This document shows, one piece after another, positions 3,332 through 59,980 of a stretch of 64,000 bases of DNA. Position 1 is the first letter of the stretch. Each line of letters opens with the position of its first letter. This stretch comes from an uncultured virus (IMG/VR IMGVR_UViG_3300049255_000202) (Duplodnaviria; Heunggongvirae; Uroviricota; Caudoviricetes), in IMG/VR virus record IMGVR_UViG_3300049255_000202. The stretch is one strand, 5' to 3'. A program made the translations under genes and the position numbers. The notes under the pieces were generated by a model. It saw only the letters and a list, made by a program, of their open reading frames with translations, did not search any database and was not told where the DNA came from.

Positions 3332-3853
3332 ACAGGGAAGGTACACCGATCGCGAATCTTGACAGGCAAGCCTACAGTGTCCTACATTGGAGCCATGAGC
3401 GGACCGGGAGCTGGGCCACCTGCTCTGCGATTGGGCGATGCTCGAGCGGCGGATGGCGTCCGAGAGAAGGCGCTCCCAGGCGGTCCGGCGGACCCGTGTG
3501 TCGGTCGGACCGACATACCCGCAGTGGAGGCACCGGAACTGGCCCGGCGTGTTGAAGTAGCCCCGGCGCGCGGGAGCGCTCGCACTGCGGGCAGTTGAAC
3601 AGGATCGGGTCAGGGGCGGTTGTGAACGAGCTGTACACTCAGTCCCTCTCCGGCGACTCGTCTTTGCACCACAAGATGGCCGGCGGACCCTCAGGGTCAA
3701 GAGGGACAACATCGATGCGCTTCGGGTCGCGGGGCGGCCAGTCCATCCCCGCGGGCGAGTTTCATGGCGGCGTCCCGGTCGGCCGCTCGCACCACGTTGA
3801 TCGAGTAGCCCCACCGTTCGTGGTCGTAGACGAGCCAAAGCATCGGGCGCACC

Positions 3854-3869
3854 TACACCGGGCGGTGTA
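3854..3869. promoter_or_regulatory. Back-to-back pair of CGGTGTA motifs (putative divergent promoters)
   Basis: TACACCG-gg-CGGTGTA, with an ATG 10 nt away on each side (3843 minus, 3880 plus). Confidence 0.7.
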
Positions 3870-3879
3870 CTTTCAGCTC

Positions 3880-4131
3880 ATGTGGGGCGAGTCCAAGGAC
3901 GTCGACGGCGAGTGCAACGCCCGCCTGGAGATCGGGGACGACTTCGGGGACAACCACGCGACCATGCGGTGTCAGCGCGAGCCCGGACACGAGGGCAGGC
4001 ACCGCGAGGTCTACAAGTCCTCTCGCTCGGGCGAAGTCATCGTCGGGCTCGTCCGGTTCGAGCCGGACGTCGCGCTCCCACTCGAGGACCTGTTCGAACC
4101 CGTCGAGGATGACGATGCGGACGAAAACTGA
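3880..4131 (+). CDS. Hypothetical protein
   Basis: ATG 10 nt after CGGTGTA; C...C...GHxGxH metal-binding-like pattern. Confidence 0.55.
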   Translation: MWGESKDVDGECNARLEIGDDFGDNHATMRCQREPGHEGRHREVYKSSRSGEVIVGLVRFEPDVALPLEDLFEPVEDDDADEN

Positions 4132-4262
4132 CTACAACGAGAGGGCTCGCCAGACGGTGCCGTGCGGCTACTGCGGCGCGAAACGGGGCAGCCCGTGCCG
4201 AGGGGCCTTCGGCGACGTCCGGTACACGCACTCCGTGCGGAGGCGTGACACGATCCTCAAGC

Positions 4263-4544
4263 TCAGAGGCTCACCTTGTGGAACTTCGCCGCGAAGTCCG
4301 TGAGCGCCCACGAGGCCTGATCGACCTTCTCGCTCGCCTCTTCGAGCATGCGCATCGGCTTGATGAGCTTCGCCATGCCCCCGAACTCGCCGCCCATCTG
4401 GCGCTCGATTTCGGCCTGAATCGCGTTGGCCCGCGTGATGAGCGCCTTGAGGTTCGCGGCGGCGGCCGTGACGTCGGACGCGAGCTGATCGACCTCGGCA
4501 GCCGAGGCGACCTTCCATCGGGGATCGTTGGCGGGAATGGTCAC
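4263..4544 (-). CDS. Small helical/coiled-coil hypothetical protein
   Basis: GTG start overlaps the upstream TGA; MTIPANDPRWKVASAAEVDQL... Confidence 0.6.
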   Translation of the reverse strand: MTIPANDPRWKVASAAEVDQLASDVTAAAANLKALITRANAIQAEIERQMGGEFGGMAKLIKPMRMLEEASEKVDQASWALTDFAAKFHKVSL

Positions 4545-7045: not shown

Positions 7046-8089
7046 TCACTCGGGCTCCTTGAGGGCGATGGGGCGCGAGAGGATCGGTGCATCGAGAGGA
7101 CCTCTCCAGTAGGGTTCGACCCACACGGGGTAGCCCATGCGCTCGGAGAGCTTGGGCTTCCAGTGGCCGCGCACGAGGGTCTGGACCGTGGGGCTCGCGC
7201 CCTTGCGCTTGCCACGGTCGTGAATGAAGTCGTCGAGAGCCTGGCGGCAATCGACCACGATCTCCTTGCCGAGTTTGAACGTGCGCGCCTTGGGCTCCTT
7301 GCCCCGGCGGCCGACACTGCCGACGCTGCCGACGCTGCCGTGGCTCGGGTGCGCTTTGACGTTCGACGGGTCGCTCATGGCGAGGCACACGGCGGCGATG
7401 AGCTTGCCGACGAGCTGGTTCGTCCGGCCGTCTACGCCTTGGTCGAGAGGGATGGCGAACGTGCATCCCTCCCATGTGCCGGTCCCGGTCAGCTCCGAGA
7501 GGGCGAGTTCCTTGGTGTCGATACCGTGGCGCCAGATGGTCGTGGCGCCGTCCGTCATGGCGAGGAACTGCCAGGTCTCGCCACGCTCCTCGGTCCGGAC
7601 GTGGTGAACGAGCACGCGCCGGATGGTGATCTCCTGCCCGTTCTCGGCCACGATGGGGAGCATGGCGTCCGGCACTTCGACCATGAACGCGGGCCACGGT
7701 GGGCGGACCTGCGGCAGCACCTCGGTCGGGATGTGGGTCGCCATGAGGGCCGCCGCGTAGCGGTGCCCCACGACGATCTGAGGGAACCCGCAGTCGGCCC
7801 ACCGGGCTCCGCCGAGGGCGAGGATCTGGTCGAAAGGGAGCGCGAGCGAGTCCGCCAGCTCCGGGCTTTGGGCCGCGAACCACGTCTCGGCCAGGTCGTA
7901 GGCCGTCCGGTCGTCCTGGGTGTGGGCATACGTCACCCGCCAAAGAACCGACCCCATTTCCATGATTTGCGCCTTGGTGGGCGCGAGGAGCCTCTGCTCA
8001 GCCGGGGTCATCTGCCGGCGCAGAACCTCGCGGCGCTGGTGGAGGGCCTCGGCAACTTCCTGGCGGGACTGGGGGCGCGTGAAGACCAC
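7046..8089 (-). CDS. Phage-type hypothetical protein with C-terminal VRGHW...WVEPYWRGP motif
   Basis: 347 aa ORF; this C-terminal motif recurs in phage proteins of unknown function; CGGTGTA upstream at 8105-8111. Confidence 0.7.
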   Translation of the reverse strand: MVFTRPQSRQEVAEALHQRREVLRRQMTPAEQRLLAPTKAQIMEMGSVLWRVTYAHTQDDRTAYDLAETWFAAQSPELADSLALPFDQILALGGARWADCGFPQIVVGHRYAAALMATHIPTEVLPQVRPPWPAFMVEVPDAMLPIVAENGQEITIRRVLVHHVRTEERGETWQFLAMTDGATTIWRHGIDTKELALSELTGTGTWEGCTFAIPLDQGVDGRTNQLVGKLIAAVCLAMSDPSNVKAHPSHGSVGSVGSVGRRGKEPKARTFKLGKEIVVDCRQALDDFIHDRGKRKGASPTVQTLVRGHWKPKLSERMGYPVWVEPYWRGPLDAPILSRPIALKEPE

Positions 8090-10607: not shown

Positions 10608-11013
10608 GGGTTCCCTCTCCGCGGGGCTTCTACACCGACTCAGCTCTTTTTCGAGAACCACTTGAGCGGGGCGACCGGGCGGCGATTCACGCCGTCGTCG
10701 AGGGCGAGCGTGTCGAGTTTCTCCCACGAGGTCTTGCGCGGAAGCGAGAGGCCCAACCATTTGAGTTTTTTGTGGAGGCCGCATTTGCGGCATTCGGCGC
10801 CGTCCCAGTCGTGCTCGACGGGCTTCACAGGATGCCCCGCACAACCTTCTTCCATGCGGTCGGCGAGAGGACGCCGACGAGCGACGAGATACGGATCGCC
10901 GAGCTTCCGTCGGGTGAGGATCATGCCTGCCGTTATGCCGGCGGATACGCCGGCAGCCGTCGACGTAGCAAAGTTCAGGCAGCACCGGATCGGGCATCGT
11001 GGCCGCCCACTCC

Positions 11014-11709
11014 TTAAGAGGAGAACTCGGAAACGTCGGCCTGACCGCTGAGAACAGCGGGCAAAATCGCGTCGCGAAGATGCCGCAGCCGCCGCGTCTG
11101 CTCGTGGATGGCGTGCATTCGCGAAAGGTCGGTCGTCGTTTGCTCCAACGGTAGGCCCAATAATGCCACAAACTCGAGGGAGGCCAGGAACTCCACGATT
11201 CGATCCTGCTCCTCGAGGTCCGGTGCCGCGATCTCGAACTCGAAGAGATCACCCTTATACAGCTCCGGATACGTGGAGCCGTTCGCAACCAGGTCGAGAT
11301 ACGGCCGGTTGGCGATGAACCAGTACGCCAGATAGAGCGGTCGCAGACGAGGTCCGCAGCTGAAGTTGAGGAAGCCCTGGTTCGTGGCCATCGGCTCCGC
11401 AGCCACGGCAACCGCACCCACCGGCGCCCGCTTGCTCAGCATGACCGTTCCTGGCGGCAGTAGCTTCGCTCCGGACGATTGGAGCCCGATGGTTGTGATC
11501 GTGCGCTCTGTTTGCGTCACGTAGAGGCCGCGCCCATTGCGCGCGATCTCCTTGGGCGTGAGCCACAACACATCCCCGTCCCAGTACTCCTCCACCGTCG
11601 TCGGCGGCGTACCGCCCGTATCGACACGGTCGATCAGCCCGACAAGCGGATTTGGCTCCAGGGTGCCGCGGCGCCACGAGCGGGGGCACTGCAGGAAGGG
11701 CTCAGCCAC
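11014..11709 (-). CDS. hsdS: Type I RM specificity subunit, half-size (single TRD)
   Basis: TGGTPP...YWDGDVLWLTPKE...LLPPGTVMLSKRAPVG...TNQGF...GSTYPEL...PDLEEQDRIV; overlaps hsdM end. Confidence 0.85.
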   Translation of the reverse strand: MAEPFLQCPRSWRRGTLEPNPLVGLIDRVDTGGTPPTTVEEYWDGDVLWLTPKEIARNGRGLYVTQTERTITTIGLQSSGAKLLPPGTVMLSKRAPVGAVAVAAEPMATNQGFLNFSCGPRLRPLYLAYWFIANRPYLDLVANGSTYPELYKGDLFEFEIAAPDLEEQDRIVEFLASLEFVALLGLPLEQTTTDLSRMHAIHEQTRRLRHLRDAILPAVLSGQADVSEFSS

Positions 11710-13291: not shown

Positions 13292-13588
13292 CTAAAACCT
13301 GTTGAGGCGCTCCCACGAGGTCGGGCAATACGGCCGAGGCTGGAGCGCGAGCTTCACGACGGATCGGAGCACACGGATCTTGGCCGCCGGGGTCTTGGCC
13401 TGGAGAACTTTCGGGAGCATGACGACGGTCTCAGCGGGCGCGACCCATTGCGTCCACGGTGCGTTGCACTCGCGGCACTGGAAGCCTGCGAGCCCGATCT
13501 CCTCGTACATGCGGATGTCCTGGTGGCCGCTCGCGTTCACGTGTGAAGCCACGGCCTTGAGCACGTCCCCAAATGTCGCGAGGCGCAT
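13292..13588 (-). CDS. Hypothetical protein with C-terminal W-motif (PTSWERLNRF*)
   Basis: TGATG coupling to the upstream gene; CxxC. Confidence 0.65.
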   Translation of the reverse strand: MRLATFGDVLKAVASHVNASGHQDIRMYEEIGLAGFQCRECNAPWTQWVAPAETVVMLPKVLQAKTPAAKIRVLRSVVKLALQPRPYCPTSWERLNRF

Positions 13589-15034: not shown

Positions 15035-15400
15035 ATGGACGCCTGGGAGAAGCGTCAAGCTGCGGGCCGGCGGCGCCGGGAGCTTCGAGAGCGGGCTGTC
15101 CGTTACCTCGGCGGCAAGTGCGCGATCTGCGGCTACGACAAGAGCACCATGGGGTTCGATTTCCACCACGTGAGGGTCTGGGAAAAAGATTTCACGATCT
15201 CGGCCAAGATGACCTCGTGGGAGAAGATCGAGCCCGAGCTGAAGAAGTGCGTGCTCCTGTGCTGTCGGTGTCACCGGGAAGTCCACGACGGTCTCCACCC
15301 TGGCTACCTCGAATATGAGGAGAGCAACCGGGGCGGGGATGACCGCCAGCTCGACATGTTCGACGACGACCTAGAGGTCGATGTCCAAGGGGTCTGCTGA
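15035..15400 (+). CDS. HNH endonuclease
   Basis: YLGGKCAICGY...FDFHH...ELKKCVLLCCRCHREVH. Confidence 0.85.
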   Translation: MDAWEKRQAAGRRRRELRERAVRYLGGKCAICGYDKSTMGFDFHHVRVWEKDFTISAKMTSWEKIEPELKKCVLLCCRCHREVHDGLHPGYLEYEESNRGGDDRQLDMFDDDLEVDVQGVC

Positions 15401-15763: not shown

Positions 15764-16123
15764 TCACGGGTCGTAGTCTAGCACGGGCTTGTCCTTGTGC
15801 CGGATGCGACGCTGGCGCTCGTAGAACGCCTCCTTGCGGCATTCCGTCGAACAATAACGCTGGCCCTTTTTCTTCGGCCGGAACTGCCGGTCGCAGAACT
15901 TGCATTTGGGGAGCGTCGACGTCGCATCCACAGCGCCGGGCAGCTCGTCCTCGTCGTCGTGGAGGACCCGTTCGAGCCCCGTCATGCGCTTGCGCGCGTT
16001 GTCCCACTGGGCGAGGAGCCGACGCCCGATGGAGCGCGTCGTGTGACGCAGCTCCGAGTGCGGGCTGTAGATGAGCTTCCGCAGGTACGCGGCGAGATCT
16101 TGAGCGGCCTGGTCAGCGGTCAT
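15764..16123 (-). CDS. Hypothetical protein with C-terminal zinc finger
   Basis: CKFCDRQF......YCSTECRK. Confidence 0.6.
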   Translation of the reverse strand: MTADQAAQDLAAYLRKLIYSPHSELRHTTRSIGRRLLAQWDNARKRMTGLERVLHDDEDELPGAVDATSTLPKCKFCDRQFRPKKKGQRYCSTECRKEAFYERQRRIRHKDKPVLDYDP

Positions 16124-16737: not shown

Positions 16738-17139
16738 ATGCGCTGGCGAGCGGCCCTAGTCACCTACGAGTGGCCCGGCACCACGGTCGGCTTGTTCGAG
16801 GCCCCGGACCGCGCCACGGCCGACCGGCTCGGGCGGGACCTCTTCAAGGCGCTGGACCCGCCGCCCCGGCCAACTTCGTGGGGCGAGACGGTCATGTTGG
16901 TCCACGAGGTCCCGCCATGCGAGCGGTGCGGGACAACCGAGGGCGTCGACGTCCGCTCCAGTCGCACCATGTACCCGGCACCTCGCCTGAGTTCGTGGGA
17001 ACGGATGCTCCTCGATGACGAGGGGCTCGGTGAGCCGCCGGACCCGAACGCGCCGCCGTGGCTGTGTCCCGAGTGCGCCAAAGAACACGACGAGTACTGG
17101 GACGAGATGTGGAGCGACTACTACCGGAGCTGCTACTAG
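16738..17139 (+). CDS. Hypothetical zinc-finger protein with W-motif loop
   Basis: CERC ... LCPEC pair separated by a loop containing SSWERMLLDD. Confidence 0.65.
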   Translation: MRWRAALVTYEWPGTTVGLFEAPDRATADRLGRDLFKALDPPPRPTSWGETVMLVHEVPPCERCGTTEGVDVRSSRTMYPAPRLSSWERMLLDDEGLGEPPDPNAPPWLCPECAKEHDEYWDEMWSDYYRSCY

Positions 17140-17472: not shown

Positions 17473-17816
17473 TTACTCTTCCTCTTCGTCGCGCTCCAGG
17501 TGCTCCCACGCGGTCGGCGGTTGAACAGGGACATCGGCGTAGGTCTCGCCTTTCGCCGGGCGATTGCCGTGCCACCTGTTGACCTCGTATGCCTTGCGGT
17601 AGCGCGTTGAGGGGCACGGGGCTTTTTGGGGGGTCGTCTTCGTTCGTGAAGTTGATTGCCCACACTTGGCGGAGCGCTTGCCACTCGGGGTTGGGCGTCG
17701 CAGTACTCACAAATTGACGGAGCGTGAAGCACGTTCGGGTCGCAGTGGGGGAACTGCCCGAGAGTTTGGAACGCCTCCGCAGGGGCTTGGTAGCGATCGG
17801 GTTTCTTGTCAGGCAT
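17473..17816 (-). pseudogene. Frameshifted hypothetical gene ending ...PPTAWEHLERDEEEE*
   Basis: Manual translation across frames: FPHCDPNVLHAPSICEYCD / EWQALRQVWAINFT / NRWHGNRP...PPTAWEHL; shifts lie at homopolymer runs. Confidence 0.6.
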
Positions 17817-18582: not shown

Positions 18583-19503
18583 TCAGTCGTCCTCGTCTCC
18601 CGAGGAGATGGGCGTGGTCGTCCACTCACGTTTCTGGACGGCCGCCCGTGGGACGGCCGGAGTGGTCGGCGGGTCGAACTTGTCGGGCTCCGGCTGTGCG
18701 GCGGTCTCCTCACCGATCTCGGTCTCGCCGGCCAGAACGCGCTCGTAGGCGTTCTTGTACGGCCGGTTAGCCAGGAACTTCTCCGCTTGCTCGCGGGCCT
18801 CCCGCGGGGTTGCACCGCCCACGTTCACGGCCCCCTTGTCGGGGTAGCGCACGATGCCCACAGCGGGGCCCGTCGGATCGTCGAACACGACGGCGAACCC
18901 GTTGGAGTTCACGAGCACGCCGAACCGCTCGTGCTCCTCCCACGCCGGTAGCCCTTCTCGCGCGGCCACCTCGGCGTCATCGAGGTCGATGGTCGCTCGG
19001 ACAGGCGCGTTCGGGTCACGCGGTGGCGCCTCGGGCTCGCCAGACGTCACGCGACCGCCCCAAGATGGGAAGTCCTCGCCCGTGTCGTCGCCGTCGTCGG
19101 GGTCTCCCCCGTCGAGACGTCCCTCGTCCCGCTCGGCCATCGCCCGGTCGAATTCGGCGACCCTCGGGTCCTCGGGGTGCTCGATGTAGCCATCCACGCC
19201 GAACGTTGCCTGCGCGGTCCACCCGGTGTACTCGTCCATGTCGGCGTCCCACACCCACCACATGTCGGGGTTGGGCTGACGTGGGCGATTCTCTCCGAGA
19301 CGAATGGCGGTCCGGGCGAGGTACGGACGGGCCACGATGTAGTCGAACCCGCCGTGCAGCCCGGTGTGGACGATGCTGAAGTGGATGTTCGCTCGGTCGA
19401 GCCCGGTCTGCTCCTCTACGCCGGGGAGCGCATTGTTGACGAACTCCTCGTCGCGCTCCATTTCGGTGCGCGTCATCGGCCGTTCGCCGGGGAGCATCGG
19501 CAT
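18583..19503 (-). CDS. Acidic hypothetical protein
   Basis: ATG 10 nt from CGGTGTA; contains NAYERVL variant motif. Confidence 0.7.
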   Translation of the reverse strand: MPMLPGERPMTRTEMERDEEFVNNALPGVEEQTGLDRANIHFSIVHTGLHGGFDYIVARPYLARTAIRLGENRPRQPNPDMWWVWDADMDEYTGWTAQATFGVDGYIEHPEDPRVAEFDRAMAERDEGRLDGGDPDDGDDTGEDFPSWGGRVTSGEPEAPPRDPNAPVRATIDLDDAEVAAREGLPAWEEHERFGVLVNSNGFAVVFDDPTGPAVGIVRYPDKGAVNVGGATPREAREQAEKFLANRPYKNAYERVLAGETEIGEETAAQPEPDKFDPPTTPAVPRAAVQKREWTTTPISSGDEDD

Positions 19504-19513: not shown

Positions 19514-19528
19514 TACACCGCCGGTGTA
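19514..19528. promoter_or_regulatory. Palindromic TACACCG-C-CGGTGTA (putative divergent promoters)
   Basis: Start codons 10 nt away on both sides (ATG 19503 minus; GTG 19539 plus). Confidence 0.75.
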
Positions 19529-19538
19529 CCGTTGCCCC

Positions 19539-19766
19539 GTGAGGTTCAAGAACTTCGCCCGAGAGGTGATTGCGGTCCCGGTCGTCATTTGGACCCACCC
19601 CAAAGGCGGCCAGATCGTGGAGAACCTACTCGTAGAGCCCGGCGAAATATCTCAGGAATTCGACGAGTCCGACCCTATCGTCCAACGGATGCTCAAAGTC
19701 CATCCGGAACTTCGCCCCGTGGTCCTCGCGACAGCGTGGCAGCGAATTCTGGACGGGGTCCTCTAG
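19539..19766 (+). CDS. Small protein with C-terminal W-motif (TAWQRILDGVL*)
   Basis: GTG 10 nt after CGGTGTA. Confidence 0.65.
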   Translation: MRFKNFAREVIAVPVVIWTHPKGGQIVENLLVEPGEISQEFDESDPIVQRMLKVHPELRPVVLATAWQRILDGVL

Positions 19767-21280: not shown

Positions 21281-21952
21281 CTATTCGCGGCCGAACAAGT
21301 CCTCGGCGAACAAGTCCTCGGCCAGCACCCGGCGAATACCCGGTCGGCGCTCGCGGAGGGCTTGTGCGAGAAGCTCGATCCATTCGCGGTGTCGGGCTAG
21401 TTTGGCGTCCAGCTCTCGCTCCCTCTCGACCAGATCGGGGAAGCAGTAGGCCGCCCATTCGGAGCCCAGCTCTTTGCGGACGGCCATGAGAGCCTTCGCG
21501 TCGTCCCCGGCAAGGGCTTGCGCGGTGTCGTAGAGCCGCACGAGGAAGTCCTTGGGCAACACCTGGTTGAACGTCATCATCCTTCCGCAGCCCTTTTGCA
21601 CCCGATGCTTTTCTTCGATGCGAACCCAGATGTGCCCCCACGGCCATCCGTCCGGCAAGTTCGTCGTGAACCCGCACAGCGGCATGCCGTGATGGAGAAT
21701 GTGGATCTCCCTGATAGCTCCGACATTGCGGAGGAAGCATTCGAAGTGGACGGGTCGCTCCTCGACCCTTGGCGCCTCGGGTGTCCCATCCACGTGCGGC
21801 ATCACGAACCCTCGGCTGCCTTGTGTGATCGGCTCCTCGCAGAAACCGCAGTCGCCCTCGGGGGTAAGCACCTGCGGGGTCGTCCGGCACACGGGCGCAC
21901 CCCAGTCGGGTCCGAACCACTTCACGCGGAGCCCCCTTGGCTGACGAGCCAA
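21281..21952 (-). CDS. Hypothetical protein (possibly chimeric)
   Basis: Protein-like ORF with Cys/His motifs. Confidence 0.45.
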   Translation of the reverse strand: MARQPRGLRVKWFGPDWGAPVCRTTPQVLTPEGDCGFCEEPITQGSRGFVMPHVDGTPEAPRVEERPVHFECFLRNVGAIREIHILHHGMPLCGFTTNLPDGWPWGHIWVRIEEKHRVQKGCGRMMTFNQVLPKDFLVRLYDTAQALAGDDAKALMAVRKELGSEWAAYCFPDLVERERELDAKLARHREWIELLAQALRERRPGIRRVLAEDLFAEDLFGRE

Positions 21953-22290
21953 GGGGCCTCGCCCCCATTCACGAGCCGCATGATGGCTGATTCACCTTCG
22001 CCGTGGACAACCACCCAGATGGCGCTAGCCCTCGGCATCGTCTCGCCGCCCGCCGGCTTGAGCATCCTGTCCCAGGTGGAACCGCCCACCCACCGGCCTG
22101 AATCCCGCATGAACTCCACGAAGTCCCTTCGGGTAGCGATGCTCAGTGCTACGTGCTCGGTCCCGTCCCCGTGGGGTTCGATGATGGCCACGAGGTCGTC
22201 TTCTTCGGGGTGCTCCTCGCGCATCTTCTCCCAGTACTCGAAGATTTGGGAGCTGATCCGCTCGACGAGTTCGAGCCCAGGCGGCTTCAC
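21922..22290 (-). CDS. Hypothetical protein
   Basis: GTG 10 nt from CGGTGTA (22301-22307); contains STWDRML. Confidence 0.6.
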   Translation of the reverse strand: MKPPGLELVERISSQIFEYWEKMREEHPEEDDLVAIIEPHGDGTEHVALSIATRRDFVEFMRDSGRWVGGSTWDRMLKPAGGETMPRASAIWVVVHGEGESAIMRLVNGGEAPWLVSQGGSA

Positions 22291-25839: not shown

Positions 25840-26121
25840 ATGCCCGACCTTGCCCGAGCCGCTCGTGTTGCCGAGGGCGCCCGCATGATGTTGACCGAAT
25901 GCGAGGGGGAGGACTTCGAGGTTCGCCGCCGTTTCGCCGTGATGATCCTCATCCTACGCGGGCACAAGATCACCCCCACGGACTTGAACGAGCAGCCCTA
26001 CGGGCTCGTCGGTCAGTGCCAGATCTGCGACCAAATCGTCCGCGTCGCTCGAGCGGGGACAGGCATCCAAGGGCGAGCCGTCGAGAACGACTGTCCGGCG
26101 GCCGAGTGGCGACAACCCTAG
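25840..26121 (+). CDS. Hypothetical protein
   Basis: ATG 10 nt after CGGTGTA (25823-25829). Confidence 0.6.
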   Translation: MPDLARAARVAEGARMMLTECEGEDFEVRRRFAVMILILRGHKITPTDLNEQPYGLVGQCQICDQIVRVARAGTGIQGRAVENDCPAAEWRQP

Positions 26122-26324
26122 AGACCGTTCACCTCGAGGACGCGCTTCCAAGATGTCCGGTTCTTCCGGCGTTTGGGACGGTGGGGTTTGCACCGCGTGT
26201 GACCACAAACGACGCACGCCGTCCGGACTTCGGAGTTATCCCGTTGCACTTGCAGCAGAACCAGAACGCCGCTGCCGGACTCCCCTTGCACCGCCTCCGC
26301 TTTTTCTTCGAGCGGGGCACAGGG

Positions 26325-26681
26325 CTACTCGTCGCTTTTGATGCGGTCCCAAGACGTCGGGCAAGTCGGACGATTCTCGGGTTCGAGCTGGTCCGTCTTT
26401 TCTCTCAAGTAGCCGACGACCTCTTGGGCTTCGTCGCGGTTGAAGGACATGCGGCGGACGCCGCCATCATCAGCCACGTCGAGCGCGCAGTTTGGCTTGC
26501 CCTGGGGCGACTCGTTGATGTTGTAGCGGCAGTCCAGCCATGGGCAAGGGCACGCTGCGTTAACCCCGCCTTCGAGGCAGTCTCCGCGCACGCGAGGCTT
26601 CTGCCGGGTCTCGGTGAGGACCGGCAAGTGAAGGACTCCGTTTGACCCGCTCCCGTTAGAGCCGTGCTCCCCATCACCCAT
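26325..26681 (-). CDS. Cys-rich hypothetical protein (possibly fused fragments) ending PTSWDRIKSDE*
   Basis: PRVRGDC...PCPWLDCRY...CALDVA pattern; C-terminal W-motif. Confidence 0.55.
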   Translation of the reverse strand: MGDGEHGSNGSGSNGVLHLPVLTETRQKPRVRGDCLEGGVNAACPCPWLDCRYNINESPQGKPNCALDVADDGGVRRMSFNRDEAQEVVGYLREKTDQLEPENRPTCPTSWDRIKSDE

Positions 26682-27024: not shown

Positions 27025-27372
27025 ATGGGAGAGGAAGGCCGACCGATTTTTGAGGTCACGTTCGAGGGGGACTACGTCGCCCCGAGGGTGCGAACCTTCA
27101 GCGGGTACGAGCGTCCAGGCTTCTCGACCGCGCTCACCGACTGCTCGTGGGAACACCATGTATGCGGTGGGGCCATGGACTTGCAGCCCACGACCGCCAA
27201 GGTGCAGACGCTCCACTGTCGCAAGTGCGGCCTCAGGGTGTCGTTCCCGGTCAACATCGCGACCTACGGGGAGATGCGCCGTCACTTTCTCGAAAAACTC
27301 GGCGGCATTGTCGAGGACGAGAAGACCCAAGGGTCGTACCTCGACCGCGTGAACGACGCGATGGACGACTGA
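27025..27372 (+). CDS. Zinc-ribbon hypothetical protein
   Basis: ATG 10 nt after CGGTGTA; HVCGG...CRKCG. Confidence 0.6.
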   Translation: MGEEGRPIFEVTFEGDYVAPRVRTFSGYERPGFSTALTDCSWEHHVCGGAMDLQPTTAKVQTLHCRKCGLRVSFPVNIATYGEMRRHFLEKLGGIVEDEKTQGSYLDRVNDAMDD

Positions 27373-28786: not shown

Positions 28787-28829
28787 GCTCGACGTCCGAT
28801 AGGTAATCCTCTTGTCACAACCGCTAGGT

Positions 28830-31106: not shown

Positions 31107-32177
31107 ATGACGGAGTTTCACCCGAACGCGGTCATCGAGGGGCCGACCCGGCGCTACCTCGTCAAGGGCGTCCGGTGCCAGGGCGACCTCACGATCCTCT
31201 ACGACGGGACCTACGCGAACGGCGGCGGGGACAACCACGTCGTCATCAAGGTCTCGCGCGACACGGACGACAACGATCTCGTGTGGAACGAGGCGGGCAT
31301 CCTCGGCGCCATCTACCCGCCGGACCAGCCCGAGGGGAAGCTCGACAAATACCTCCCGCGCCTGCTCGACGCCTTCGAGGCCAAGGACGGGCATCGGGTG
31401 AACGTGCTCGCCCGCATTCAAGACTACGTGAGCTTCGAGCAGATCCTGACGGCGTACCCCAAGGGCCTCAACTGGCTCGACGTCGTGTGGATGTACAAGC
31501 GCCTCCTCATCGGGCTCGGGTACGCCCACACCAAGGGCATCATCCACGGCGCCATCATCCCGCCGCACGTGATGGTCCACCCGGTGGAGCACGGCGCCAA
31601 GCTCATCGACTGGAGCTACGCCCTGAACTTCGCTGCACGACTCGCCCCCAAAGCCGTCGAGTGCTGCCACGGGACTCCGGGGTGCAAGGGTGTGGGCGAC
31701 AAGCACTGGTGTGTCGCGGACCCGACGGCGGCCAAGGCTCCCGCCGCATCCAAGCCCCACAAGGCCGCGAACGCCTGGGAGAAGCTCTTGGAGGACGCGG
31801 ACTACGATCCCGATCCCGCGGTGAAGCTCCCGAAGCCGCCGCCCGTGGACCCGAACCGGATGTACGTCCGCGCCATGAGCGTCGATTGGGAGCATTTCTA
31901 CGCCCCCGAGATCCTCGCGAAGGTGCAACCGACACCGGCCACGGACCTCTACATGGCGGCCAAGTGCGTCGTCGCCCTCCTCGGCGGGAACGTGGAGACC
32001 AACCAGATGCCCGACGCGGTTCCGGTGCAGGTCAAGGCGTTCCTCCAGTCGAGTCTCATGCCCGCCATGCGCGCGAGGGCGTTCGATGCGTGGGAGCTGC
32101 ACGACGCCTTCGAGAAGCTCGTCGACACGCTCACCCCGCGCAAGTACCGGCCGTTCACGATGCCGGCGAAGAGCTAG
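31107..32177 (+). CDS. Protein-kinase-fold protein, probably a pseudokinase
   Basis: VVIK, NE, IIHGAIIPPHVM (HGA in place of HxD), LIDWSYA, YAPE, TDLYM; ~80 aa insert after DWSYA. Confidence 0.8.
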   Translation: MTEFHPNAVIEGPTRRYLVKGVRCQGDLTILYDGTYANGGGDNHVVIKVSRDTDDNDLVWNEAGILGAIYPPDQPEGKLDKYLPRLLDAFEAKDGHRVNVLARIQDYVSFEQILTAYPKGLNWLDVVWMYKRLLIGLGYAHTKGIIHGAIIPPHVMVHPVEHGAKLIDWSYALNFAARLAPKAVECCHGTPGCKGVGDKHWCVADPTAAKAPAASKPHKAANAWEKLLEDADYDPDPAVKLPKPPPVDPNRMYVRAMSVDWEHFYAPEILAKVQPTPATDLYMAAKCVVALLGGNVETNQMPDAVPVQVKAFLQSSLMPAMRARAFDAWELHDAFEKLVDTLTPRKYRPFTMPAKS

Positions 32178-32549: not shown

Positions 32550-32831
32550 ATGCGCGCCATGCCCGATTGGAAGGAAGAATTCGAGCGCCAGAAGGACCAG
32601 TTCTCGGACCTCGTGAGGAAGGCGAGCAACGAGGAGCTGATCAACACGCTCAAATTCGGCCAGCTCACGATGAGCAACTGGAAGAACCAAGGCATCGTGC
32701 AGACGCAGGGCGTCGGCAACCTGCTTCCGCCGCAAGTCATGGCGGCGGTTGCTCCCGTGCTCGGGGACGTCGAGATGCCCCAGCCTCCCAAGACGGCGTG
32801 GGACCGTGTGCTAGAGGACGAAGAGGATTAG
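32550..32831 (+). CDS. Small protein with C-terminal W-motif (PKTAWDRVLEDEED*)
   Basis: CGGTGTA at 32539-32545. Confidence 0.65.
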   Translation: MRAMPDWKEEFERQKDQFSDLVRKASNEELINTLKFGQLTMSNWKNQGIVQTQGVGNLLPPQVMAAVAPVLGDVEMPQPPKTAWDRVLEDEED

Positions 32832-40611: not shown

Positions 40612-40848
40612 CTACACCGGGAGAGGGAGATGCTCCCAGAACGTCGGCTTCGGCTCGATCTTGCCGCACTCGGAGCACGGCTCGCCGGCCTTCACGTTGA
40701 CGGGGCCTCCGACGCGCCAGCATCGGATGGAGCACGGAATCTCTCGCGTCATCAGAAACTGCTGAGCCTTCGTCAGCGAGTCCCACTCGATCCCGTGACG
40801 CTCCAGAAAGGAGCCCAGCCATTCACGAGCTTTGAGATCGTCGGCCAT
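40612..40848 (-). CDS. Small zinc-finger protein ending KPTFWEHLPLPV*
   Basis: Cys pairs; C-terminal W-motif; stop embedded in CGGTGTAG. Confidence 0.6.
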   Translation of the reverse strand: MADDLKAREWLGSFLERHGIEWDSLTKAQQFLMTREIPCSIRCWRVGGPVNVKAGEPCSECGKIEPKPTFWEHLPLPV

Positions 40849-48926: not shown

Positions 48927-49244
48927 ATGGCACGGAAGACAAGATCAAATCGCCGGAAGTATCTCATCCTCGGTCGCGACGTGAGGCGCATCACGGGCCT
49001 CAAGTGGACCACCATCCAGTGGTGGATCTGGCGCTCGGGTTTCAAGTGGGACAAGACGGGCAAGGTGAAGAAGGGCATCGTCCGCAAGGGCCGCCTGATG
49101 CCGAAGAAGGGCAAGCGCTACTCCCAGGAAGCGATCTGGGACGTCAACGACTTCCTCCGGTACCACCCGACCGTGTTCCGCAAGCTCGCGACCCAGAACG
49201 CCTGGACGCGGCTTCACTACGACCTCAACGACTTCGAGGACTGA
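48927..49244 (+). CDS. Basic hypothetical protein ending NAWTRLHYDLNDFED*
   Basis: ATG 10 nt after CGGTGTA (48910-48916). Confidence 0.65.
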   Translation: MARKTRSNRRKYLILGRDVRRITGLKWTTIQWWIWRSGFKWDKTGKVKKGIVRKGRLMPKKGKRYSQEAIWDVNDFLRYHPTVFRKLATQNAWTRLHYDLNDFED

Positions 49245-57199: not shown

Positions 57200-58131
57200 G
57201 AGACCTTCAATGTTCGCCCCTTCACGGTCGAGAACATGGGCGTGTATCAGCGCGCCGAGCAGTGGCAGGACTTTCAGACCCGGCGGAGCCGCTACCGCGA
57301 CGAGATGATCAAGGTGTTCGGCGGCGAGGTCGTGAACCACTCGCACCTGCTTCACGGTCGGAAGGGCCACTCGTGGGTGCATATCGGCCCGCTCGACGGG
57401 CCCGTGTCGGTCGCGCAGGTCTGGTCGATCGCGCGCGAGGCGCAACGCACCGACATGAAGGCGGTGACGGTCCTCTCGGCCGACTTCGACACACTCTCGG
57501 GTTCGGAGAAGGACGATCAAGGGGGCGACCGGCGTCGCGGTCACGATCCGAGTGATCCCCAAGAACGCCATCGACGAGGTGAAGCGCCGCTTGGAGATGC
57601 TGCGCGCCAAACCCCGACGCGCCCGTCGAGTCGATGGCGATCCCGGCGTTCTATGCGCCGCTGGCGATCCGGCTCGGCAGCCGCGTCTCGGGTCGCATGG
57701 TGCGGCTCACCCTCGAGCGGTGCGAGGTCGACATCGAGTCGTTCATCGCGAGCCAGCGTCCCGTGCTCAAGGCCGTTGCGCCGGGAATGTCCGCCGCCGC
57801 GAAGAAGAAGGCGCAGGCGGAGATCGACAAGTGGGAGACGCGCAAGCGCGAGCTGGAGAAGTGGCTCGCCAAGGCGAACACCTGGCAGAAATTCGTGGAC
57901 TTCTGGGCCGTCGACTGGGACTACCGCAGCCGTCCCGACGTTGACGATCGCCCGATCTTCGAGACCGACTGGCAGTCGTTCCGCGTGCGCAAGGGCAAGG
58001 GCGAGGTGGAGCCGCTCGTGCTCACCGCCGAGTACAAGTACGAGCAGCCGGGGCAGTACCAGGTCGCCGCGCGCGTGACGGACGTCTTCGGCAACGACGG
58101 CATCGCCACCGTCACCGCAGAGGTGAAGTGA
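57200..58131 (+). pseudogene. Frameshifted 3' part of a second Mod-like gene
   Basis: PFTVENMGVYQR...VDFWAVDWDY...VTDVFGND. Confidence 0.7.
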
Positions 58132-58358
58132 TGGCTCCGTCATCTGCGCCGCCGCCGCCCTTCCCCTTTGTGCGCGTTCACCATGAAGCTCGAACCGAAC
58201 AGGACCTCCACTAGGCGGCCCGACAAACCGGAGAGTACATGTGCTCGACGAGACACTTGGCGCAGATGCGCGGGCGGACTTCGACGTCCGCTGGCCACTC
58301 GTCCCGCGGGAGGATCTTGCCGTCGACGACCGGGAGAGCCCAGGTCTCGCCGTGCTTC

Positions 58359-58754
58359 TCACACTGAACCGTGAGCTTCTTCAAGCAGGAGCAACCTTTC
58401 CCAGGACGTGCGGCCATGGCCCACGATCGGTGGCCCTGGCTCGAATGGCCTGGCGGTGGACCCATCGATGTACACCAGGTGCCCGCCGTAGCGCTGGATG
58501 AGGCCGAGTGCGGCATCGAGTCCGGCGACCCATGCGTAGCGGAAACGGCCCTCGACATCGAACACGTGAACGCGGTCGGGGGAGCTTTGGTACCACTGGG
58601 CTGCGGCCGGGAATAGGCCCCACGCGATGACCGTGTGCTCCGGCCCGCTCTGCCCCGAGCCCGAAGGCCTGAAGCCGCTGATGTGAAGGTAGAGCCCCTC
58701 CTCGTCGCGGATGACGTAGTAGTTCTGCCTGTCTACGGCCGTGCCGCGGATCAC
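58359..58754 (-). CDS. Hypothetical protein with C-terminal W-motif (RTSWERLLLLEE)
   Basis: GTGA coupling with the upstream ORF. Confidence 0.65.
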   Translation of the reverse strand: MIRGTAVDRQNYYVIRDEEGLYLHISGFRPSGSGQSGPEHTVIAWGLFPAAAQWYQSSPDRVHVFDVEGRFRYAWVAGLDAALGLIQRYGGHLVYIDGSTARPFEPGPPIVGHGRTSWERLLLLEEAHGSV

Positions 58755-59194
58755 GAGAGGGTGCTCCCTTCACGGCGCGTCTCGATCGCCATCGAGACGC
58801 ACGTCTCGACCCACTCGGGGTTCACCGAAGTGCCGTCCGGACCGATAGCGAGGTCGGGTTTCGGCTCCATCATCACGATGAACTCCGGCGAGTTCGACTT
58901 GTACATGAACCATGCGAGGCACGTATCACCGTCACCCCACGGAAAAGGGAAGGTCTCCATGTGCTCGCGGTCGAGGAGTCGCCCGACGCCGTACCGCACC
59001 TTGTGGAGCGCCACGGTCTCGATGCGGCCCGTGGGGAAGATCTCAGCCCACCGGGCACGCAGAGCTTCCGTCGCACGCCAGGACTGGCTGTCGACGGGAA
59101 GCGTCCACGCTTCATCGTGGTCAAGAGGCGCCGACACGACCTTGCCCTCCATCGGCGTGCCGTCGACGACGATCTCTACGGTGCCGCCGATCAT
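58751..59194 (-). CDS. Hypothetical protein
   Basis: Protein-like ORF. Confidence 0.55.
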   Translation of the reverse strand: MIGGTVEIVVDGTPMEGKVVSAPLDHDEAWTLPVDSQSWRATEALRARWAEIFPTGRIETVALHKVRYGVGRLLDREHMETFPFPWGDGDTCLAWFMYKSNSPEFIVMMEPKPDLAIGPDGTSVNPEWVETCVSMAIETRREGSTLS

Positions 59195-59632
59195 CCACGT
59201 GCCCGTGCGACACCTTCCACCGCGGGTCTTTCGGAGCGACGCTCATCGATGCCTCCATGCTAGCCCGAGAACGGGACTTCGTCCTCGTACTGCGGTTGCG
59301 GGCGCCTCTCGTACTCTTTGATCATCATCTCGAGCTTGGCATCCGCCTCGTCTTGAAGGGCGCCCATCTCCTCGCCCCCGTGCTGCTCGGCGTACTCGAG
59401 GAACTGCTCTAGCCGGCGCTCGGGTGTCCCCTTGAACTGGTGCTTCGTCTTGCGCCACAGGGCCTGGAGGTGCGGCGGGAGGTTGACGATGACGGCCTCT
59501 TCACGCTCGCGGCGATGTTCCCATCCGCCGGGCGTGCCGTAGCCCTCACGTTCGAGGAAACGGGCCAGAACTCGGGGTGTGAGGGCGTCCACGCCCATGC
59601 CGGCCCATCGAAAGATCGGTGTAGGCTCGACC

Positions 59633-59980
59633 GTGGCCGATCGACCTCTCCCCTCTTGGGCCGTCCAGGGAACGAAGATCATGCCCGCCTCCGACCGGGG
59701 CCGCGAGAAGTTCGCATGGTTCTCGAAAGAGAACGAGATCAGCTACGGCCTCGTGAACTCGGTCGAACCGCCGGGCGGCTACGAAGGCGGCATCGCGATC
59801 CACGTGGTGATGTACGACGTCCACGGCAACCCCAAGAAAGTCGGCGCGGTCGGCGCGATCCCGTGCTTCACGATCCTCAAGCGCGAGGACGGGGTGATGA
59901 CCCTCGTCGCCCCGCCGACCGCGTGGGAACGGCTTCTGGGATTCCCGACCGTGTGGTCCCACGTGCTCGGCGACGACTAA
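59633..59980 (+). CDS. Hypothetical protein with two tandem C-terminal W-motifs
   Basis: GTG 9 nt after CGGTGTA; ends PTAWERLLGFPTVWSHVLGDD*. Confidence 0.65.
   Translation: MADRPLPSWAVQGTKIMPASDRGREKFAWFSKENEISYGLVNSVEPPGGYEGGIAIHVVMYDVHGNPKKVGAVGAIPCFTILKREDGVMTLVAPPTAWERLLGFPTVWSHVLGDD

What the first reader, a model, noticed from the sequence alone, without database searches (positions are those of the whole stretch)
3464..59968. Shared short peptide tag (T-[AS]-W-[ED]-R-L-L-like) on ~15 unrelated proteins: candidate protein addressing/docking system
Seen in sequence, 16 copies: TAWERLL 3464-3484(-), TSWEKLD 10712-10732(-), TSWERLN 13301-13321(-), SSWERML 16990-17010(+), TAWEHL 17497-17514(-), NAYERVL 18733-18753(-), TAWQRIL 19731-19751(+), STWDRML 22060-22080(-), TSWDRIK 26337-26357(-), NAWEKLL 31770-31790(+), TAWDRVL 32793-32813(+), TFWEHL 40627-40644(-), NAWTRL 49197-49214(+), TSWERLL 58389-58409(-), TAWERLL 59918-59938(+), TVWSHVL 59948-59968(+). 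In nine proteins it lies within ~20 residues of the stop. It is usually preceded by Pro/Lys/Arg linker residues and often followed by acidic residues. Codons differ between copies (acc-gcc-tgg-gag-cgc-ctt, aca-gcg-tgg-cag-cga-att, acg-tcc-tgg-gaa-agg-ttg), so conservation is at the protein level rather than a DNA repeat. The carrier proteins share no other visible similarity. Inference: an N-capped amphipathic helix acting as a short linear motif read by one hub, for example sorting to a phage compartment or virion, membrane/scaffold docking, or a degron. I know no described phage motif with this consensus.
Basis: partly seen in the sequence, partly recalled or inferred. Interest (0 to 1): 0.92.

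Follow-up and report, generated by a model that had tools for sequence, protein, structure and literature searches.

The report
Portable address tag on phage proteins
About one in ten proteins of this large bacterial virus, and dozens of proteins in its giant relatives, carry the same short helical peptide, usually at their tail end, which behaves like an address label read by one still unidentified partner.

Summary
All 16 copies are at the stated coordinates. The strict core T-[AS]-W-[EDQ]-[RKH]-[LIVM] occurs 10 times in six frames, against a mean of 0.085 in 200 simulations. Ten of 15 placeable cores lie within 20 residues of a stop, against 2.9 expected (P=7e-5).

The window is a large phage distantly related to Bixzunavirus mycobacteriophages.

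The tag is portable. It sits in lineage-specific insertions of a kinase and a zinc-ribbon protein whose outside homologues lack it. Kinase orthologues carry it in two different loops.

The same tag marks 8 ORFs of a 10-kb metagenome relative and 2-5% of the proteins called in the three huge-phage records censused.

Each sublineage has its own dialect: T-A-W-E-R-L, T/N-L-W-D-H-L or T/S-R-F-D-R-I. Dozens of unrelated carriers therefore change in concert, which points to one co-evolving reader.

A ClpX-type unfoldase is my best candidate (about 0.35). The neighbouring Bcs1-like AAA ATPase is unlikely, because one complete tag-bearing genome lacks it. My four literature searches found no description of the tag.

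The parts
3464..3484 (-). Tag copy TAWERLL, after a CxxC knuckle. The gene context is uncertain: the zinc-ribbon halves lie in different frames, and there is no stop before the next gene.
10640..10924 (-). Small carrier ORF. Tag TSWEKLD at 10712-10732, 24 residues before the stop, after a CxxC.
13292..13588 (-). 98-aa carrier. C-terminal tag PRPYCPTSWERLNRF-stop (13301-13321). The L003 orthologue ends PKPYRPTSWERVLRA-stop.
15944..15982 (-). Degenerate tag TGLERVLHDDEDE inside 15764-16123(-), with Leu at the Trp position. The L003 orthologue has TGFERVMDDDGDE.
16738..17139 (+). Zinc-ribbon protein. Tag SSWERMLLDDE (16990-17010) lies in a ~15-residue insertion between the two CxxC pairs. The insertion is present in the L003 orthologue (NAWTRLLLDDE) and absent from Caulobacter phage homologues.
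17473..17706 (-). Short carrier frame ending PPTAWEHLERDEEEE-stop (17497-17514). The start is unclear. The L003 orthologue keeps PPTAWEHV.
18583..19503 (-). 306-aa acidic protein with variant NAYERVL (18733-18753), 50 residues before the stop. The L003 orthologue has TAMERVL.
19524..19766 (+). 80-aa carrier ending ATAWQRILDGVL-stop (19731-19751). The L003 orthologue ends PTWFEKLLREPPF-stop.
21922..22290 (-). Carrier with STWDRML (22060-22080), 46 residues before the stop.
26118..26291 (-). Tentative 57-codon carrier ending NRTSWKRVLEVNGL-stop (26139-26156), after CxxC.
26325..26681 (-). Carrier ending NRPTCPTSWDRIKSDE-stop (26337-26357).
27334..27369 (+). Possible degenerate tag SYLDRVNDAMDD at the end of 27025-27372(+).
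31107..32177 (+). Ser/Thr-kinase homologue. Tag NAWEKLLEDAD (31770-31790) lies in a ~71-residue insertion between the DWS (DFG-like) and APE motifs. Rizal gp250 lacks this insertion.
32550..32831 (+). 93-aa carrier ending PQPPKTAWDRVLEDEED-stop (32793-32813).
40612..40848 (-). 78-aa carrier ending CSECGKIEPKPTFWEHLPLPV-stop (40627-40644).
48927..49244 (+). 105-aa carrier ending QNAWTRLHYDLNDFED-stop (49197-49214).
58359..58754 (-). 131-aa carrier ending GRTSWERLLLLEEAHGSV-stop (58389-58409).
59597..59980 (+). 127-aa carrier with two tandem tags: PPTAWERLLGFPTVWSHVLGDD-stop (59918-59938 and 59948-59968).

Best explanation
**What it is.** The peptide [T/S/N]-x-[W/F]-[D/E]-[R/H]-[L/I/V] is a portable docking tag. 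It is usually preceded by Pro/Lys/Arg and followed by Leu and acidic residues. I read it as one short N-capped amphipathic helix that presents Trp and Leu on one face. The helix itself is inferred from the sequence pattern, not modelled.

**Where it occurs.** A clade of large to huge phages attaches it to the C-terminus, or to an exposed loop, of many unrelated proteins. These are mostly small proteins of unknown function, plus a Ser/Thr kinase and, in one relative, a radical-SAM enzyme. The clade comprises this window, the L003 contig, and IMG/VR records G001, G002, G012, G013, G014 and G016.

**How it works in general (about 0.85).** Within each genome all carriers share one dialect, and the dialect differs between sublineages. 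One reader per phage-host system therefore binds the tag and co-evolves with it. Shown: enrichment, terminal bias, portability and concerted dialects. Inferred: that binding to a single reader is what maintains these.

**Reader I commit to (about 0.35; the confidence figure of this field refers to this full statement).** A ClpX-type AAA+ unfoldase reads the tag through its zinc-binding N-domain, as E. coli ClpX tethers the C-terminal tail of SspB. This ClpX is encoded by the huge relatives themselves. For this window it may be the host's.

**Consequence (open).** Tagged proteins would be handed to an unfoldase, either for timed removal together with a host ClpP or for remodelling or translocation.
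For: **Tag real and terminal.**

**Portable.**
- The kinase tag lies in an insertion absent from Rizal gp250.
- Kinase orthologues carry it in the activation-segment insertion (window, G002, G014, G010) or in an N-lobe loop (G001, G016).
- The zinc-ribbon tag lies in an insertion absent from Caulobacter phage homologues.
- Five of five aligned window/L003 orthologue pairs keep a motif at the same place, with Met or Phe replacing the aromatic residue in two. Overall identity is 35-53%. A sixth carrier and its L003 orthologue both hold the motif.

**Spread.**
- L003: 8 tagged ORFs in 10.1 kb.
- DNA pattern for T-[AS]-W-[DE]-R: G001 11 and G002 7, against 0 for the backwards control.
- Census of cores within 20 residues of the C-terminus: G001 27 of 586 called proteins, G002 9 of 371, G014 29 of 565. 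Shuffled tails give 0.5-0.8.

**Dialects.**
- G001: T22 S5 N1 / A10 V6 C5 / W24 / E19 D8 / R27 / L18 I8.
- G014: T14 N11 S4 / L27 / W25 / D26 / H28 / L25.
- G012: TLWDHL type, 44 pattern hits against 4 control; 5 of 5 sites inspected are C-terminal.
- G016: [TS]RF[DE]R[IVL].
- G013: 'RFD' in 11 tails, P=3.5e-9.

**For ClpX.**
- G001 and G002 were found by the tag alone, and both encode a ClpX with the zf-C4_ClpX domain. None of the 6 tag-free large phages examined does (G003-G006, Mx1, Rizal).
- Searching IMG/VR with that ClpX then retrieved the further tag-bearing genomes G010, G012, G013, G014, G016 and G018.
- G005, a complete huge phage with the Bcs1-like AAA but no ClpX, shows no specific C-terminal motif in a de novo test that recovers the tag in G001, G013 and G014.
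- Both phage ClpX sequences show [VL]-G-F in a stretch that I take, by eye and without an alignment, for the loop where E. coli ClpX has IGF.
- SspB tethers substrates to ClpXP (abstract of bioRxiv 10.1101/2022.11.06.515074, seen in the listing). That ClpX N-domains bind short C-terminal tethering peptides is established knowledge that I recall, not something I computed.
Against: - No binding was tested for ClpX.
- The ClpX co-occurrence rests on related genomes, effectively one clade. G010-G018 were found through ClpX, so they are not independent evidence.
- ClpX-encoding records show neither the W-type nor, where tested, the F-type tag: G015 (79% complete), and G020, G022, G024 and G025. They may have other dialects; I did not test this.
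- The 64-kb window has no ClpX. Among the best 120 of 7,980 ClpX relatives in the protein database, none sits on a contig of 128,790 bp, the probable length of the window's contig. This is inconclusive, because only 120 were listed.
- No ClpP (PF00574) is found in G001, G002, G012, G013, G014 or G016, so degradation would need the host's ClpP.
- The phage ClpX is 55-64% identical to many database ClpX proteins. It is therefore not obviously specialised.
- The residues after the core vary, and the distance to the stop ranges from 0 to 24. The tag is thus not an ssrA-like extreme C-terminal degron.
Confidence: 0.35

Rival explanations
1. **Virion cargo label.** The tag loads proteins into the capsid, read by the inner capsid surface, scaffold, portal or a loading ATPase. 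Tagged proteins would then be injected with the DNA.
For: - The architecture matches C-terminal cargo-loading peptides of encapsulins: a flexible linker plus a short terminal peptide on unrelated cargo. This is recalled knowledge.
- Carriers include enzymes useful at the moment of injection: the kinase, and a radical-SAM protein in G001 at 77257-78243.
- Iyer et al. [quoted passage not shown]
- ClpX and ClpP were detected in phage G particles (PMC12484599, passages read).
- Earlier AI notes of this scan favour capsid loading for other tags (e1-6024620).
Against: - No virion data exist for this clade.
- Several window carriers lie next to the promoter-like element CGGTGTAY, whose timing class is unknown. 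In G001 most carriers called lie at 46-304 kb; I did not map the structural module.
- Every phage has a capsid, so co-occurrence cannot test this reading.
- The known phage precedent, the T4 CTS, is N-terminal and is cleaved off (recalled).
Confidence: 0.2
2. **Host-hub mimicry.** The tag docks phage proteins on a host machine other than ClpX, for example another protease or chaperone, RNA polymerase, a clamp or a polar scaffold. The dialects would then follow the hosts.
For: - Dialect groups differ in G+C: window and L003 0.645-0.65, G002 0.595, G001 0.552, G014 0.55. This would fit different hosts.
- No phage-encoded reader could be shown.
- The window itself holds no ClpX.
- The promoter-like CGGTGTAY elements sit 10-20 nt before start codons. 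Together with the Bixzunavirus kinship this suggests an actinobacterial host with its own hub proteins. That is inference.
Against: - It is hard to see why 5-12% of a phage proteome, including metabolic-type enzymes, should need the same host protein.
- Neither a host nor a host motif was identified.
- Rizal, which infects Mycobacterium, has 0 strict cores in the 100 kb read.
Confidence: 0.2
3. **Bcs1/YjoB-like AAA as reader.** The AAA ATPase encoded in the window (41646-42821) binds the tag through its N-terminal domain.
For: - It is the most conserved protein shared with L003, at 80% identity against 35-79% for the others.
- The gene upstream of it is a carrier in L003 and in G001.
- Its fold is closest to B. 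subtilis YjoB and to Bcs1 translocases.
- It is present in G001, G013, G014 and G016.
Against: - G012, a complete genome with direct terminal repeats and 44 tag-pattern hits, has no homologue at E<=1e-20.
- The family is present in Mx1, G003, G004 and G005. In these the tag patterns I tried stay near the backwards control (the F/Y pattern in G003 and G005 only).
- G005 shows no specific C-terminal motif de novo.
Confidence: 0.04
4. **Phosphorylation or kinase-docking motif.** The phage kinase phosphorylates the leading Thr or Ser, and a phospho-reader such as an FHA domain binds the modified site.
For: - Thr dominates position 0: 22 of 28 in G001.
- The kinase occurs in the window, G001, G002, G010, G014 and G016.
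- Its own tag lies in the activation segment in four orthologues.
Against: - Asn, which cannot be phosphorylated, fills position 0 in 11 of 29 G014 tags and 3 of 16 window copies. This includes the window kinase's own tag.
- G012 and G013 carry tags but have no kinase hit.
- No FHA domain is found in G001-G005.
- Rizal has the kinase without tags.
Confidence: 0.04
5. **Chance or artefact.** The pattern arises from composition, a DNA repeat, or hidden homology of the carriers.
For: - High G+C gives many spurious ORFs.
- Two carriers share a longer tail, RP[YT]CPTSW[ED]R.
Against: - Observed counts are more than 100-fold above simulations and shuffles.
- The reversed pattern occurs 0-1 times.
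- Codons vary.
- blastp finds no similarity between carriers outside the tail.
- The tag recurs in five to six further genomes with backwards-pattern controls near zero.
Confidence: 0.01

Closest known systems
C-terminal ClpX-binding (XB) tail of the SspB adaptor and other peptides that tether to the ClpX zinc-binding N-domain
   Same: Both are short peptides at the end of a flexible linker that act as a handle rather than as part of a fold. A ClpX with the zinc-finger N-domain is encoded by the tag-bearing huge relatives.
   Different: - Here the handle sits on dozens of unrelated proteins, not on one adaptor.
- The consensus looks different from the XB sequence as I recall it.
- Binding is untested.
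- The window shows no ClpX.
- These phages encode no ClpP.
Cargo-loading peptides of encapsulins (C-terminal tags that dock cargo enzymes inside an HK97-fold shell)
   Same: Both are C-terminal, linker-preceded short motifs on unrelated cargo. The consensus varies with the lineage of the shell. (The comparison is recalled, not computed.)
   Different: No shell or capsid reader is shown here. Some copies are internal, in loops. The tag covers 2-12% of a proteome rather than one to a few cargo proteins.
Capsid targeting sequence (CTS) of phage T4 internal proteins and Alt
   Same: Both are phage-encoded portable peptides that address unrelated proteins to one destination.
   Different: The CTS is N-terminal and is removed by the prohead protease (recalled). 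The present tag is C-terminal or in loops, with no sign of a cleavage context.
C-terminal sliding-clamp-binding tails (T4 gp43, gp55, gp33; bacterial clamp-binding motifs)
   Same: Many different proteins share one short terminal peptide read by one ring-shaped hub.
   Different: Carriers here are mostly small unknown proteins, a kinase and a radical-SAM enzyme, not DNA-transaction proteins. The consensus lacks the Gln-Leu-x-Leu-Phe character as I recall it. No clamp was examined.
Other lineage-specific terminal tags of huge phages noted earlier in this scan (AI notes e1-5811523, e1-5754086, e1-5692565, e1-5850658, e1-6007788, e1-5938382, e1-6024620)
   Same: Two of those notes suspect ClpX.
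   Different: Their consensus sequences are hidden or different. They are unchecked notes from other genomes, not independent evidence. This case adds three dialects within one clade and the relocation of the tag within kinase orthologues.

Membership tests
Short linear docking motif (SLiM) in the general sense | Short, lies in linkers or termini rather than inside folds, and recurs on unrelated proteins | tested here: met
   No blastp similarity between carriers outside the tail. Pro/Lys/Arg-rich flanks and terminal position.
Short linear docking motif (SLiM) in the general sense | Portable: gained or moved within orthologues, and absent from outside homologues | tested here: met
   Kinase. 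Zinc-ribbon protein.
Short linear docking motif (SLiM) in the general sense | A defined binding partner | not testable with these tools
ClpX N-domain tethering tail (SspB XB type) | A ClpX with zinc-binding N-domain is available to the carriers | tested here: inconclusive
   Present in G001 and G002 and in G010-G018. Absent from the 64-kb window. No sign on the window's probable contig among the 120 relatives listed. The host is unknown.
ClpX N-domain tethering tail (SspB XB type) | The peptide binds the N-domain | not tested
See the next steps.
ssrA-type C-terminal degron | Conserved last residues with a free carboxylate at a fixed distance from the end | tested here: not met
   Residues after the core vary and the stop follows 0-24 residues later. 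Some copies are internal.
T4 capsid targeting sequence | N-terminal position with protease cleavage | tested here: not met
   The tag is C-terminal or in loops. Cleavage was not examined.
Encapsulin-type cargo-loading peptide | C-terminal short motif after a flexible linker on unrelated cargo | tested here: met
Encapsulin-type cargo-loading peptide | Binds the inner face of an HK97-fold shell, so that cargo is found inside particles | not testable with these tools
   Needs proteomics or structures of particles.
Phospho-Thr motif read by FHA domains | An obligatory Thr at position 0 and an FHA reader | tested here: not met
   Asn at position 0 in 11 of 29 G014 tags and 3 of 16 window copies. 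PF00498 matches 0 of 5 records.
Bcs1/YjoB-like AAA ATPases (protein 41646-42821, not the tag) | Classic-clade AAA domain plus a Bcs1-type N-terminal beta-rich domain | tested here: met
   PF00004. The AAA domain aligns to p97/NVL/PAN. The best Foldseek matches of the model (pLDDT 80) are 7w42 (YjoB) and Bcs1 entries, at E about 1e-12 to 1e-13.

The most novel reading that the evidence does not exclude
A clade of large and huge phages runs its own proteome-addressing system. One short helical tag is written onto 2-12% of the called proteins and can be moved between loops and termini. A single reader decodes it and drifts together with it into genome-specific dialects. If so, the phage decides by a portable label which of its proteins are unfolded, removed or translocated during infection. 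The many different terminal tags seen in other huge phages would then be versions of one general, undescribed principle.
Probability: 0.4. Interest if true: 0.88.

Novelty: new variant of a known kind. Interest (0 to 1): 0.8.

Why it matters
Most genes of large phages are small ORFans with no handle for study. A shared tag groups dozens of them into one functional class and gives a direct experimental entry point: peptide pull-down, W-to-A mutants and dialect swaps.

If it is the capsid, it would define the injected proteome. Either answer bears on how huge phages organise infection.

The tag could also be used to deliver chosen proteins to that destination in laboratory phage-host systems. 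The three dialects within one clade offer a natural specificity experiment.

Tried and rejected
**Complex prediction.** I ran the Bcs1-like AAA (alignment A2) against a 32-residue tag tail (alignment A5). The tool returned 'no answer' (score 0.00 against a mark of 0.32; controls not run). This counts neither for nor against binding. It used the only job, so ClpX could not be tried.

**Searches for close relatives.**
- Megablast of 20 kb of the window against phages found nothing; against plasmids it found one 95-bp chance-like hit.
- An exact 50-mer of the window is not in IMG/VR.
- The search for related loci with the gp251-like protein and with the 2-sequence AAA alignment found nothing in IMG/VR or in GTDB genomes.
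- No whole genome is held for the window, and there are no earlier notes on it.
- The word-index search with carrier 13292-13588 found only itself.

**PSSM.** A PSSM built from 16 copies re-finds only its seeds, which is circular.

**Palindrome.** The palindrome I thought I saw upstream of genes (ACACCGGTGTA) does not exist: 0 matches. The real element is CGGTGTAY.

**Patterns that failed.**
- The pattern for PTAWDRI found no new tag-bearing contig beyond G001.
- A too-specific pattern for the Tyr dialect found only the G014 kinase.
- The F/Y pattern is too noisy to count tags: G016 gave 41 against 25 control. G016 sites were therefore read individually.

**Protein 7046-8089.** It co-occurs perfectly with the tag clade: window, G001, G012, G013, G014 and G016, and none of 21 other records. 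It looked like a reader candidate. Its model is poor (pLDDT 55). The Atlas points to AcrVA2-like proteins (PF26125, 29 of 30 hits, score 0.97). I treat it as a clade marker.

**Other rejected readings.** FHA/phospho-reader; DNA repeat.

**Limits of the counts.**
- My gene calls are a crude codon-bias caller. All 'k of n proteins' figures depend on it.
- The census regex counts only 7 of 126 for the window, because some carriers fall outside that gene set or regex.
- G013, G014 and G005 were read for their first 400 kb only.

Full report
**1. The observation**

All 16 peptides are present at the coordinates and strands given.

The window is 64.5% G+C and has 486 ORFs of 60 codons or more in six frames. 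I therefore built a crude codon-bias gene list of 124 genes covering 76% of the window, and used several controls.

- The strict core T-[AS]-W-[EDQ]-[RKH]-[LIVM] occurs 10 times in six frames. The mean is 0.085 (max 1) in 200 second-order Markov simulations.
- In called proteins it occurs 8 times, against 0.02 (max 1) in 1000 within-protein shuffles. It occurs 0 times in reversed proteins.
The expectation is 2.94 and P=6.8e-5.
- Identical residues use the identical codon in only 88 of 245 comparisons, and copies lie on both strands. Selection therefore acts on the peptide.
- blastp of all called proteins against each other links carriers only through the tail itself (13292 against 26325, 17 residues).

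Weak points:
- Copy 1 lies in a stretch where a zinc-ribbon gene appears split between frames.
- Copy 5 has no standard start codon in frame.
- Copy 6 has Tyr for Trp.

I found three more likely copies.

**2. What the window is**

There is no close DNA relative among phage or plasmid records, and no genome is held.

Pfam and PHROG hits are phage-like:
- a PurA/PurZ-type adenylosuccinate synthetase homologue;
- a Ser/Thr kinase;
- HNH endonucleases;
- several DNA methyltransferases;
- HsdM/HsdS;
- an RNA ligase;
- Hsp20;
- a resolvase;
- an AAA ATPase.

No structural genes and no tRNAs were found.

The kinase, a gp251-like protein and the PurA-like gene match the same neighbouring genes of Bixzunavirus mycobacteriophages, such as Rizal gp250, gp251 and gp253, at 32-36% identity. 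An identical copy of the AAA protein is recorded on a contig of 128,790 bp. The window is thus part of a large phage genome, distantly akin to cluster C mycobacteriophages.

**3. The tag is portable**

- *Kinase.* The window kinase carries the tag in a ~71-residue insertion between its DWS and APE motifs. Rizal gp250 lacks this insertion.
- *Zinc-ribbon protein.* Protein 16738-17139 carries the tag in a ~15-residue insertion between its two CxxC pairs. The Caulobacter phage homologues CcrBL10 gp121c and Karma gp132 lack the insertion.
- *L003.* A 10,107-bp metagenome contig is syntenic with window 13.3-19.7 kb plus the AAA gene.
  - It holds eight tagged ORFs in 10 kb.
  - In five of five aligned orthologue pairs a motif sits at the same place, with Met or Phe replacing the aromatic residue in two. 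Overall identity is only 35-53%.
  - A sixth carrier and its L003 orthologue both hold the motif.

**4. The tag in huge phages, in dialects**

A back-translated pattern for P-T-[AS]-W-E-R-L found 43 IMG/VR stretches. Two of them showed the tag at a C-terminus, followed by acidic residues.
- G001 is 437,331 bp, with direct terminal repeats, and is rated complete.
- G002 is 252,183 bp and rated 53% complete.

Across the whole records, the pattern for T-[AS]-W-[DE]-R matches 11 and 7 times, against 0 for the backwards control. Nearly all matches sit at ORF ends.

With my own gene calls, cores within 20 residues of the end occur as follows; shuffled tails give 0.5-0.8.

| Record | Proteins with a terminal core |
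|---|---|
| G001 | 27 of 586 |
| G002 | 9 of 371 |
| G014 (first 400 kb) | 29 of 565 |

The consensus differs by lineage.

| Record(s) | Dialect |
|---|---|
| G001 | T22 S5 N1 / A10 V6 C5 / W24 / E19 D8 / R27 / L18 I8, then Leu and acidic residues |
| G014 | T14 N11 S4 / L27 / W25 / D26 / H28 / L25, then a basic or polar residue; stop two to three residues later |
| G012 | TLWDHL type; 44 broad-pattern hits against 4 control; 5 of 5 sites read are terminal |
| G016 | [TS]-R-F-[DE]-R-[IVL] |
| G013 | De novo test over all three-residue patterns puts 'RFD', 'SR..L' and 'S.F.L' on top (11 tails, P=3.5e-9) |

The same de novo test recovers W.HL in G014 (27 tails, 0 body windows, P=1.7e-66) and T.W.R in G001 (P=6.6e-18).

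The kinase orthologues show the portability most clearly.
- The tag sits in the activation-segment insertion in the window, G002, G014 and G010.
- It sits in an N-lobe loop in G001 and G016.
- Each time it is in the local dialect.
- It is absent in Rizal.

Dozens of unrelated carriers changing in concert within a genome is what a single co-evolving reader predicts.

Records without the tag, for the patterns I tried:
- Rizal: 100 kb read, plus the whole record by pattern.
- Mx1.
- G003-G006.
- Most other ClpX-bearing records.

Absence of these patterns does not exclude other dialects.

**5. Who reads it?**

*(a) The Bcs1-like AAA (41646-42821).*
- It has a classic AAA domain. Its model (pLDDT 80) is closest to B. 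subtilis YjoB and to Bcs1.
- It is 80% identical in L003 and follows a carrier gene in L003 and G001.
- However, complete tag-bearing G012 has no homologue.
- Mx1, G003, G004 and G005 have one, yet the patterns I tried stay near the backwards control there. G005 also shows no specific terminal motif de novo.
- I rate it at about 0.04.

*(b) ClpX.*
- G001 and G002, which were found by the tag alone, both encode a ClpX with the zinc-finger N-domain. Both show [VL]-G-F in a stretch that I take, by eye, for the IGF-loop position.
- None of the six tag-free large phages examined has the domain.
- Using this ClpX as a probe retrieved the other tag-bearing genomes.
- This is suggestive but not independent. 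The genomes are one clade, and several ClpX-bearing records show none of the dialects tested.
- These phages lack ClpP.
- The window has no ClpX. I saw no ClpX on a 128,790-bp contig among the 120 relatives listed of 7,980.
- The phage ClpX is 55-64% identical to very many database ClpX proteins, so a host ClpX could serve equally well.

*(c) Capsid loading* cannot be tested by co-occurrence.
- Iyer et al. [quoted passage not shown]
- Phage G particles contain ClpX and ClpP (PMC12484599, passages read).

*(d) A phospho-motif* is unlikely.
- Asn is common at position 0.
- G012 and G013 have tags but no kinase hit.
- No FHA domain was found in G001-G005.

*(e) Protein 7046-8089* co-occurs perfectly with the clade. 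It looks AcrVA2-like by the Atlas, and its model is poor.

**6. Comparison with what is known**

The tag works like docking handles such as the SspB tail for ClpX, encapsulin cargo-loading peptides, the T4 capsid targeting sequence, or clamp-binding tails. It fails the defining features of an ssrA-type degron, because its end is variable, and of the T4 CTS, because it is C-terminal.

My four literature searches found no description of such a tag in phages. Searches gave listings and abstract starts; I read passages of two papers. Supplements were not consulted, and subscription journals are not covered.

Earlier AI notes of this scan report other terminal tags in other huge phages, some suspecting ClpX. 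I used them as leads only.

**7. Verdict**

- The identity of the hub is open. My estimates are:
  - ClpX-type unfoldase: about 0.35;
  - capsid loading: about 0.2;
  - another host hub: about 0.2;
  - other or unknown: the rest.

Noticed in passing
window, 23 sites, e.g. 16718(+), 19520(-)/19522(+), 22307(-), 27008(+), 29566(+), 33961(+), 48910(+), 52965(-), 54584(+): The octamer CGGTGTA[CT] occurs 23 times, mostly 10-20 nt upstream of ATG or GTG starts. Some occur as divergent pairs between genes. It looks like an extended -10-type phage promoter giving leaderless or short-leader mRNAs. Several tag carriers have their own copy.
   Followed up: partly
window 27830-32177 (+): A gp251-like protein, a PurA/PurZ-type adenylosuccinate synthetase homologue (phrog_1211) and a Ser/Thr kinase lie together, as in Mycobacterium phage Rizal gp250-gp253 and in G001 at 133-136 kb. 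This is a conserved nucleotide-metabolism and kinase module of this phage group.
   Followed up: partly
window 41646-42821 (-): A soluble Bcs1/YjoB-like AAA ATPase. Its family is widespread on metagenome contigs of up to 620 kb and in Myxococcus phage Mx1. Its own conserved tail ends ...PERPRNHFRDELLPEEG, which resembles but does not match the tag.
   Followed up: yes
window 3332-3900 (-): A zinc-ribbon gene seems split between reading frames: CPQC in one frame, and CLHC plus the tag in another. The tag frame then runs without a stop through a promoter-like element into the next gene. This could be a frameshift, decay or an assembly error.
   Followed up: partly
window 7046-8089 (-): A 347-aa protein with homologues only in the tag-bearing huge phages G001, G012, G013, G014 and G016 among 27 records. 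The ESM Atlas places it next to AcrVA2-like (PF26125) clusters (29 of 30 hits, score 0.97). Pfam itself gave no hit.
   Followed up: partly
window 11014-13261 (-) and 52966-54573 (-): HsdS and HsdM genes occur with no HsdR seen in the window. A 535-aa N6/N4 DNA methyltransferase has an HNH-endonuclease-like segment (phrog_5046, residues 179-318) inserted in it.
   Followed up: no
window 45283-45669 (+) and 57634-58131 (+): The only clear paralogue pair in the window: 32% identity over 77 residues, E=2e-12. Function unknown.
   Followed up: no
G001 (L081:2390-7470; record 102-108 kb): The 437-kb tag-bearing phage encodes type I-C CRISPR-Cas proteins (Csd1/Cas8c, Cas7 and a DEAD/ResIII helicase). 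It also encodes ClpX, a second AAA protein, a family A DNA polymerase, a topoisomerase IB-like protein and an ADP-ribosylglycohydrolase.
   Followed up: no
L001 (Rizal) 26699 (+): A tag-like peptide (...RPPTRSCPTQWDRVIFLL-stop) is open for 103 codons in a frame other than that of annotated gp74. It is the only tag-like terminal peptide seen in the 100 kb of Rizal read.
   Followed up: no
window 15212-15229 (+) and L003 5785 (-): TSWEKI lies inside the conserved HNH endonuclease (79% identical between the two). It matches the regex but is internal and part of the domain, so it is probably not a tag.
   Followed up: partly
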